Assembly (NCBI GenBank): GCA_043814545.1
Contig: JBDRJY010000004.1
Location: 10,788-74,787, forward strand
Direction: 5' to 3'
DNA: 64,000 bases
From: an archaeon
GTDB lineage: Archaea > Nanobdellota > Nanobdellia > SCGC-AAA011-G17 > GW2011-AR17
The stretch itself is not shown here. The text below continues a report on this DNA, generated by a model with database tools.

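What the first reader, a model, noticed from the sequence alone, without database searches (positions are those of the whole stretch)
24457..60295. 36-kb glycan or lipid modification island with an exceptional density of radical SAM enzymes
**Content**
- Ten radical SAM genes lie within 35.8 kb. By ORF coordinates they total 13,119 nt, about 37% of the island.
- Six have an N-terminal B12-binding-type Rossmann domain: 25599, 30687, 32234, 49960, 53195 and 54636.
- Two are SPASM-like (35420, 41786), one is YgiQ (51633) and one is BioB-like (48237).
- They are interleaved, often with overlapping stop and start codons, with seven glycosyltransferases (GT4 x2, GT2 x2, GT9, GT-C x2).
- Also present are a Wzx flippase, a carbamoyltransferase, an SDR epimerase, a membrane methyltransferase, an FrhB-like protein and a CooS-like protein.

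**Why it stands out**
- The B12-type paralogues fall into at least two N-terminal sequence types. 25599 and 49960 share LSACLK.(K/A)GHK, while 30687 and 54636 share PPIGL.Y. They are therefore not recent tandem copies.
- Class B radical SAM enzymes perform C-methylations and other difficult C-C or C-H chemistry on sugars, lipids and peptides. GDGT ring synthases are one lipid-acting example of B12-domain radical SAM enzymes.
- Their operonic coupling to GT and flippase genes argues for heavily tailored cell-surface glycans or glycolipids.
- For a small, presumably cofactor-poor genome this is a large investment. It also implies dependence on external cobalamin, iron-sulfur assembly and a low-potential reductant.
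- I do not know of a characterised pathway with this composition.
Basis: partly seen in the sequence, partly recalled or inferred. Interest (0 to 1): 0.8.

Follow-up and report, generated by a model that had tools for sequence, protein, structure and literature searches.

The report, continued
Best explanation
The region is a chromosomal, mosaic locus for building and decorating a cell-surface glycoconjugate in a Woesearchaeota-type DPANN archaeon. The glycoconjugate is most likely a protein-linked or lipid-linked oligosaccharide.

**Three functional parts**

1. Central core (about 35.4-44.3 kb).
   - It contains GT4b, GT9, an (alpha/alpha)6 carbohydrate-fold enzyme, a SPASM rSAM coupled to an FrhB-like Fe-S/flavin protein, and Wzx.
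   - Cytoplasmic glycosyltransferases assemble an oligosaccharide on a polyprenyl (dolichyl) phosphate carrier, and Wzx flips it outward.

2. Left decoration module (24.5-35.4 kb).
   - It contains GT2a, the YfhO-type GT-C, class-B rSAMs A and B, the AprD4-fold rSAM with its SDR, and GT4a.

3. Right decoration module (47.4-60.7 kb).
   - It contains GT2b, the PMT_2-type GT-C, a PF03706 flippase-like protein, the HpnJ-related rSAM, class-B rSAMs F and D, and the O-carbamoyltransferase.

**How the decoration modules are proposed to work**
- The logic is that of bacterial multi-component transmembrane glycosylation systems (CsbB/GtcA/YfhO, ArnC/ArnT).
- A GT2 loads one sugar onto polyprenyl phosphate at the cytoplasmic face.
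- The lipid-anchored sugar, or its nucleotide precursor, is tailored.
- It is then flipped, and the GT-C enzyme transfers it to the surface acceptor.
- The rSAM enzymes are the tailoring step:
  - The 32234/33559 pair works like AprD4/AprD3: radical 1,2-diol dehydration, then NAD(P)H reduction, giving a deoxy sugar.
  - The HpnJ-related enzyme performs another radical sugar-ring transformation. Ring contraction to a carbocycle is the precedent.
  - The remaining class-B paralogues do C-methylation or related chemistry.
  - Carbamoylation and SAM-dependent methylation add further decoration.

**Genes not in the core**
YgiQ, the CooS-like protein, the 2H phosphoesterase and the membrane methyltransferase are variable cargo.

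**Shown**
- Domain identities.
- Operon coupling.
- Conservation of the gene pairings across genomes.
- The AprD4 fold of 32234.
- The mosaic indels.

**Inferred**
- The carrier lipid.
- That the rSAMs act on lipid-linked sugars.
- The specific reactions.
- Cobalamin use.
- The acceptor.
For: - **Domains.**
- **GT2 type.** For GT2b the five best NCBIfam hits are all polyprenyl-phosphate sugar synthases (AglJ, Dol-P-hexose transferase, PpgS, PgfS, ArnC). For GT2a the three best are (AglJ, ArnC, PgfS), with Dol-P-hexose transferase and PpgS at ranks 6-7. GT2b has the two C-terminal transmembrane segments typical of GtrB and ArnC.
- **GT-C partners.** PMT_2 and YfhO are adjacent and multi-spanning.
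- **Left-module cassette elsewhere.**
  - GT2 (233 aa) - rSAM - SDR (28-nt overlap) - YfhO (782 aa) in L087-L089.
  - GT2 - rSAM - SDR - B12 rSAM - PMT_2 - carbamoyltransferase in L090.
  - PMT_2 - GT2 - rSAM in L091.
- **SDR and GT2a pairing.** The SDR is directly downstream in 22 of 65 loci, 17 with the same 28-nt overlap. A GT2a-type GT2 is within 4 kb in 24 of 65 loci.
- **32234.** The model (pLDDT 91) matches AprD4 over the whole chain, TM 0.81 and E 8e-26, against TM at most 0.65 for the cobalamin methylases. AprD4 with the reductase AprD3 deoxygenates a sugar (PMC5461906).
- **HpnJ-related family.** HpnJ is the best NCBIfam model for all 15 members tested. HpnJ is implicated in contracting a lipid-anchored glucosamine ring (PMC13459092). 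The family lies in Wzx-type polysaccharide loci in Anaerolineae, Omnitrophota and Bathyarchaeota. In DPANN multi-rSAM glycan clusters a PF03706 protein lies directly after it in L003/L009/L012 and in the same locus in L011.
- **Recurrence of the whole set.** Twelve of the island's families recur together in Nanoarchaeia locus L009, ending at MTAP as in the window.
- **Chromosomal setting.** A ribosomal-protein/SecY operon and a 5S rRNA flank the island. The 86% relative carries SecY and the island on one 599-kb contig.
- **Mosaic cargo.**
Against: - No initiating phosphoglycosyltransferase, oligosaccharyltransferase (AglB), Wzy polymerase or nucleotide-sugar synthesis gene is in the window. 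The acceptor and the carrier are therefore unknown.
- No recognised polyprenyl-phosphate-sugar flippase (GtrA, ArnE/F) is present. PF03706 is only a candidate.
- All GT2 and rSAM assignments are below the NCBIfam equivalog cut-offs.
- The SDR pairing holds mainly for the closer relatives of 32234 (22 of 65 loci overall).
- The AprD4 active-site residues were not compared.
- Nothing shows whether the rSAMs act on lipid-linked sugars, nucleotide sugars or the finished glycan.
- The HpnJ reaction itself has never been reconstituted (PMC13459092).
- The left third of the island could not be compared with the closest relative.
Confidence: 0.6

Rival explanations
1. This is head-group tailoring of membrane lipids, not of glycans. 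GT2 enzymes glycosylate archaeal (possibly host-derived) diether or tetraether lipids. The HpnJ-related and AprD4-like rSAMs then convert the hexose head group into a cyclitol or deoxy sugar, as in BHT cyclitol ether or calditol. The PF03706 protein flips the lipid.
For: - HpnJ is the best-scoring characterised family for 53195 and 32234.
- HpnJ and calditol synthase both act on lipid-anchored hexoses (PMC13459092).
- The PF03706 family includes HpnL and the MprF lipid-flippase domain.
- The PF03706 protein lies directly after the HpnJ-like gene in L003, L009 and L012, and in the same locus in L011.
Against: - The HpnJ cut-off is missed by a wide margin (323 vs 577.6), and HpnL scores only 21.5 bits.
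- In bacteria and Bathyarchaeota the family sits among Wzx, several GT4s, UDP-sugar dehydrogenase, DegT aminotransferase and PGM/PMM. That is a polysaccharide context with no lipid-synthesis genes, apart from one polyprenyl synthase in L084.
- The window holds Wzx, GT9 and two GT-C enzymes, which use lipid-linked donors to glycosylate other acceptors.
Confidence: 0.12
2. There is no common pathway. The rSAM genes are a juxtaposition of unrelated functions (housekeeping YgiQ, the PRK06267 enzyme, cofactor or tRNA enzymes) that have accumulated in a recombination-prone region next to ordinary glycan genes.
For: - YgiQ, the CooS-like protein, the 2H phosphoesterase and the methyltransferase are indels relative to an 86% relative, and a 94% relative diverges right after YgiQ.
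- PRK06267 and YgiQ are widely conserved families with no link to glycans.
- PNP and MTAP are housekeeping enzymes.
Against: - Seven of the ten rSAMs are translationally coupled to, or in the same transcription unit as, GT, SDR, Wzx or carbamoyltransferase genes.
- The pairings recur across distant genomes: GT2/rSAM/SDR/GT-C, HpnJ-like with GT4 and/or GT2 on the same strand, class-B F in the same loci as GT2b, and SPASM-2 with FrhB.
- Chance clustering has P<=3e-8.
Confidence: 0.1
3. The island is a biosynthetic gene cluster for a secreted aminoglycoside-like or pseudo-oligosaccharide secondary metabolite. The AprD4-like dehydratase, a BtrN-like SPASM dehydrogenase, a TobZ-like carbamoyltransferase, the glycosyltransferases and a MATE-type exporter would serve that purpose.
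For: - AprD4 is the closest solved structure for five of the paralogues.
- A NodU/CmcH-family carbamoyltransferase is present.
- The Wzx protein also hits MatE.
Against: - There is no 2-deoxy-scyllo-inosose synthase, aminotransferase, resistance gene or regulator.
- The polyprenyl-P-type GT2s and the GT-C enzymes point to membrane-anchored intermediates and an extracytoplasmic acceptor.
- The Polysacc_synt hit is stronger than the MatE hit.
- The cassette is conserved at a chromosomal locus (next to MTAP) across Nanoarchaeia/Woesearchaeota and lies in polysaccharide loci of many phyla.
Confidence: 0.06
4. The island is a RiPP cluster. The SPASM and class-B rSAMs would cross-link and C-methylate a ribosomal peptide encoded by one of the small ORFs, and the glycosyltransferases would glycosylate it.
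For: - SPASM rSAMs score against sactipeptide and ranthipeptide maturases, and class-B rSAMs against the RiPP C-methyltransferases ApyD and rSAM_ocin_1.
- Small ORFs are present (36452, 45945, 51386).
Against: - All of those scores are far below cut-off.
- The small ORFs have no homologue in any of the fetched loci and no Pfam hit.
- No peptidase, RRE or leader-recognition domain is present.
- The conserved partners are GT, Wzx, GT-C and SDR genes.
Confidence: 0.02

Closest known systems
HpnI/HpnK/HpnJ(/HpnL) cassette for bacteriohopanetetrol cyclitol ether (hopanoid side-chain tailoring)
   Same: - A GT2 and a PF03706 (UPF0104) membrane protein lie in the same gene block as a class-B-type rSAM.
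- HpnJ is the best-scoring characterised family for 53195 (323 bits, full-length alignment) and for 32234 (157 bits).
- The precedent is radical chemistry on a lipid-anchored hexosamine ring (PMC13459092).
   Different: - The scores are far below the HpnJ cut-off of 577.6.
- There is no squalene-hopene cyclase, HpnH, HpnG or HpnK deacetylase.
- The organism is an archaeon.
- In other phyla the family lies in Wzx-type polysaccharide loci, not hopanoid loci.
- HpnL similarity is negligible (21.5 bits).
AprD4/AprD3 (radical SAM 1,2-diol dehydratase plus NADPH reductase; C3'-deoxygenation in apramycin and tobramycin biosynthesis)
   Same: - The 32234 model superposes on AprD4 over the whole chain (TM 0.81).
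- AprD4 is the closest solved structure by sequence for five of the six paralogues.
- 32234 is translationally coupled to an NAD(P)-dependent SDR, as AprD4 works with a reductase.
- The substrate class is sugars (PMC5461906).
- Like AprD4, 32234 has no detectable B12-binding signature (PMC12931638).
   Different: - Sequence identity is only 18-20%, and NF033070 scores 111 bits against a cut-off of 500.
- The cluster motif is CX3CX3C.
- The context is GT2 plus GT-C surface glycosylation in archaea, not an actinomycete antibiotic cluster.
- It was not tested whether the SDR is related to AprD3.
Multi-component transmembrane glycosylation systems (CsbB/GtcA/YfhO for teichoic acids; ArnC/ArnD/ArnE-F/ArnT for lipid A; GtrA/B/C for O-antigen)
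   Same: - There are two pairs of a polyprenyl-phosphate-sugar-synthase-type GT2 with a GT-C enzyme (YfhO-type and PMT_2/ArnT-type).
- The Arn pathway gives a precedent for enzymatic modification of the lipid-linked monosaccharide before flipping (PMC5836110, PMC8035078).
   Different: - No GtrA/GtcA or ArnE/F flippase is present. A PF03706 protein is the only candidate.
- The tailoring enzymes are radical SAM enzymes, which are not known in any characterised system of this type.
- The host is archaeal and the acceptor is unknown.
Wzx-dependent glycan loci / archaeal Agl N-glycosylation clusters
   Same: A Wzx (Polysacc_synt) flippase, GT4, GT2 and GT9 transferases, an AglJ-like GT2 and a methyltransferase are clustered on the chromosome.
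   Different: - No AglB, AglH-type initiating transferase, Wzy or chain-length regulator is in the window.
- About 30% of the genes are rSAMs, which characterised Agl and O-antigen loci do not have.
Calditol synthase (Cds) of Sulfolobus
   Same: It is an archaeal rSAM proposed to contract a glucose ring on a membrane-anchored substrate (PMC13459092). It is a functional analogue of what an HpnJ-related enzyme might do.
   Different: Cds acts on GDGT head groups in thermoacidophiles. The present locus has a glycan-type context.

Membership tests
Class B (cobalamin-dependent) radical SAM enzymes | N-terminal Rossmann-type cobalamin-binding domain (PF02310). | tested here: inconclusive
   - Five of six pass the Pfam gathering score (51.9-90.6 bits vs 32.1).
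- 32234 fails (E=0.33), although its model has the AprD4-type N-terminal Rossmann-like domain.
Class B (cobalamin-dependent) radical SAM enzymes | CX3CX2C [4Fe-4S]/SAM motif in a TIM-barrel core. | tested here: met
   Present in 25599, 30687, 49960, 53195 and 54636. 32234 has a family-invariant CX3CX3C variant.
Class B (cobalamin-dependent) radical SAM enzymes | Actual binding and use of cobalamin. | not testable with these tools
   AprD4 is the closest solved relative of five of the paralogues. It sits in the B12-rSAM sequence network but does not bind cobalamin (PMC12931638). This needs UV-vis or metal analysis of purified protein.
HpnJ (TIGR03471, hopanoid-associated rSAM) | Score at or above the curated equivalog cut-off (577.6 bits). 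| tested here: not met
   53195 scores 323 bits. The best of 15 family members has E 4.6e-109, and none reaches the cut-off. 32234 scores 157 bits.
HpnJ (TIGR03471, hopanoid-associated rSAM) | Genomic association with hopanoid genes (shc, hpnH, hpnG, hpnI, hpnK). | tested here: not met
   The neighbours are Wzx, GT4, GT2, GT9, GT-C, SDR and carbamoyltransferase genes in more than 80 loci. No hopanoid genes were seen.
AprD4 family rSAM diol dehydratase (NF033070) | Score at or above the cut-off (500 bits). | tested here: not met
   32234 scores 111 bits and 53195 scores 110.6 bits. The best of the 16-member family has E 1.4e-39.
AprD4 family rSAM diol dehydratase (NF033070) | AprD4 three-domain fold. 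| tested here: met
   Foldseek gives TM 0.81/0.81 and E 8e-26 over about 455 aligned columns for the 32234 model.
AprD4 family rSAM diol dehydratase (NF033070) | Dedicated NAD(P)H reductase partner encoded alongside. | tested here: met
   The SDR 33559 overlaps 32234 by 28 nt. The pair is conserved in 22 of 65 related loci, 17 with the identical overlap. Homology of the SDR to AprD3 itself was not tested.
Multi-component transmembrane glycosylation system (GT2 + flippase + GT-C) | Polyprenyl-phosphate sugar synthase (GT2 of the CsbB/GtrB/ArnC/DPM1 type). | tested here: inconclusive
   The best NCBIfam hits of both GT2s are of this type (all top five for GT2b; top three plus ranks 6-7 for GT2a), but below cut-off (154 vs 325 for AglJ). 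GT2b has two C-terminal transmembrane segments.
Multi-component transmembrane glycosylation system (GT2 + flippase + GT-C) | GT-C fold transferase encoded nearby. | tested here: met
   PMT_2 scores 48.9 bits against 26.1. YfhO scores 28.9 against 28.5 and has 12 hydrophobic segments. The GT2/GT-C pairing recurs in L001, L009, L016 and L087-L091.
Multi-component transmembrane glycosylation system (GT2 + flippase + GT-C) | Small GtrA/GtcA or ArnE/F flippase. | tested here: not met
   No such Pfam hit was found among the island ORFs. The PF03706 flippase-like protein 47355 is a candidate substitute.
Wzx/Wzy-dependent polysaccharide pathway | Wzx flippase together with a Wzy polymerase, a chain-length regulator and an initiating phosphoglycosyltransferase. 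| tested here: not met
   Wzx is present. No Wzy, PCP or PGT hit is found in the island or flanks. These genes could lie outside the window.
YgiQ family (TIGR03904) | Score at or above the cut-off, with Radical_SAM_N plus rSAM plus DUF3362 architecture. | tested here: met
   546 bits against 462. All three domains are found.
rSAM-modified RiPP cluster | Conserved precursor peptide and recognition or peptidase genes. | tested here: not met
   The small ORFs have no homologues in the related loci fetched (L001-L083, L092-L171) and no Pfam hit. No RRE or peptidase is present.

The most novel reading that the evidence does not exclude
DPANN archaea (and some bacteria with related cassettes) use a previously undescribed glycosylation logic. 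A monosaccharide is loaded on polyprenyl phosphate by a GT2. A battery of radical SAM enzymes then remodels it at the membrane by deoxygenation, ring contraction to carbocycles and C-methylation, and it is also carbamoylated. A GT-C enzyme then places it on the cell surface. This would yield a repertoire of unprecedented surface sugars that could mediate attachment to host cells. The HpnJ-related family (over 300 genomes in many phyla) and the CX3CX3C AprD4-like family would be new functional classes of sugar-modifying rSAM enzymes, at least one of them independent of cobalamin.
Probability: 0.3. Interest if true: 0.75.

Novelty: new variant of a known kind. Interest (0 to 1): 0.55.

Why it matters
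- **DPANN biology.** These archaea have minimal genomes and live attached to hosts, so their surface chemistry is probably central to that lifestyle, and it is essentially unknown. Here about a third of a 36-kb surface-glycan locus encodes radical enzymes, and the same pattern recurs across Woesearchaeota and Nanoarchaeia.
- **New enzyme families.** Two families stand out as tractable targets.
  - One is an HpnJ-related family embedded in polysaccharide loci of many phyla.
  - The other is an AprD4-fold family with an invariant CX3CX3C motif that is hard-wired to an SDR, a polyprenyl-phosphate GT2 and a GT-C transferase.
- **What characterisation would add.** It would extend radical SAM sugar chemistry from antibiotic pathways to cell-envelope glycans. 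It would also add a radical tailoring step to the GT2/flippase/GT-C paradigm.
- **A caution for annotation.** A Pfam 'B12-binding' hit on these proteins is not evidence that cobalamin is required.

Tried and rejected
- **Exact-sequence look-up of the window's HpnJ-like protein** found nothing.
- **tRNA scan.** None found. The Rfam scan found only a 5S rRNA, so there is no integration-site signature.
- **Base composition.** There is no clear compositional break at the island borders, so I did not argue for recent foreign origin.
- **Literature searches** returned nothing on this kind of locus. The term sets were DPANN + radical SAM + glycosyltransferase, Woesearchaeota + radical SAM, and radical SAM + polysaccharide biosynthesis + B12-binding + archaea.
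- **HpnI/HpnL-type assignments.** HpnB and HpnL scores are negligible.
- **Phosphonate tailoring.** I considered this because 30687 hits the Sden_1168/PhpK P-methyltransferases and 49259 hits DUF1045. I rejected it because no PEP mutase is present, the scores are far below cut-off, and 49259 is an indel.
- **Terpene-cyclase reading of 39102.** I considered this because of its QxxxGGF-like repeats. I rejected it because most family members hit glycoside-hydrolase, lyase or epimerase (alpha/alpha)6 models, and so do the top structural matches.
- **hyp134 (60329) as a GtrA-like flippase.** No GtrA hit was found.
- **First neighbour count.** My first SDR/GT2 count used flank filters that were too strict. 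I recomputed it.
- **Phylogeny against named class-B enzymes.** This could not be done because their sequences cannot be fetched here. NCBIfam model scores and PDB hits were used as a proxy.
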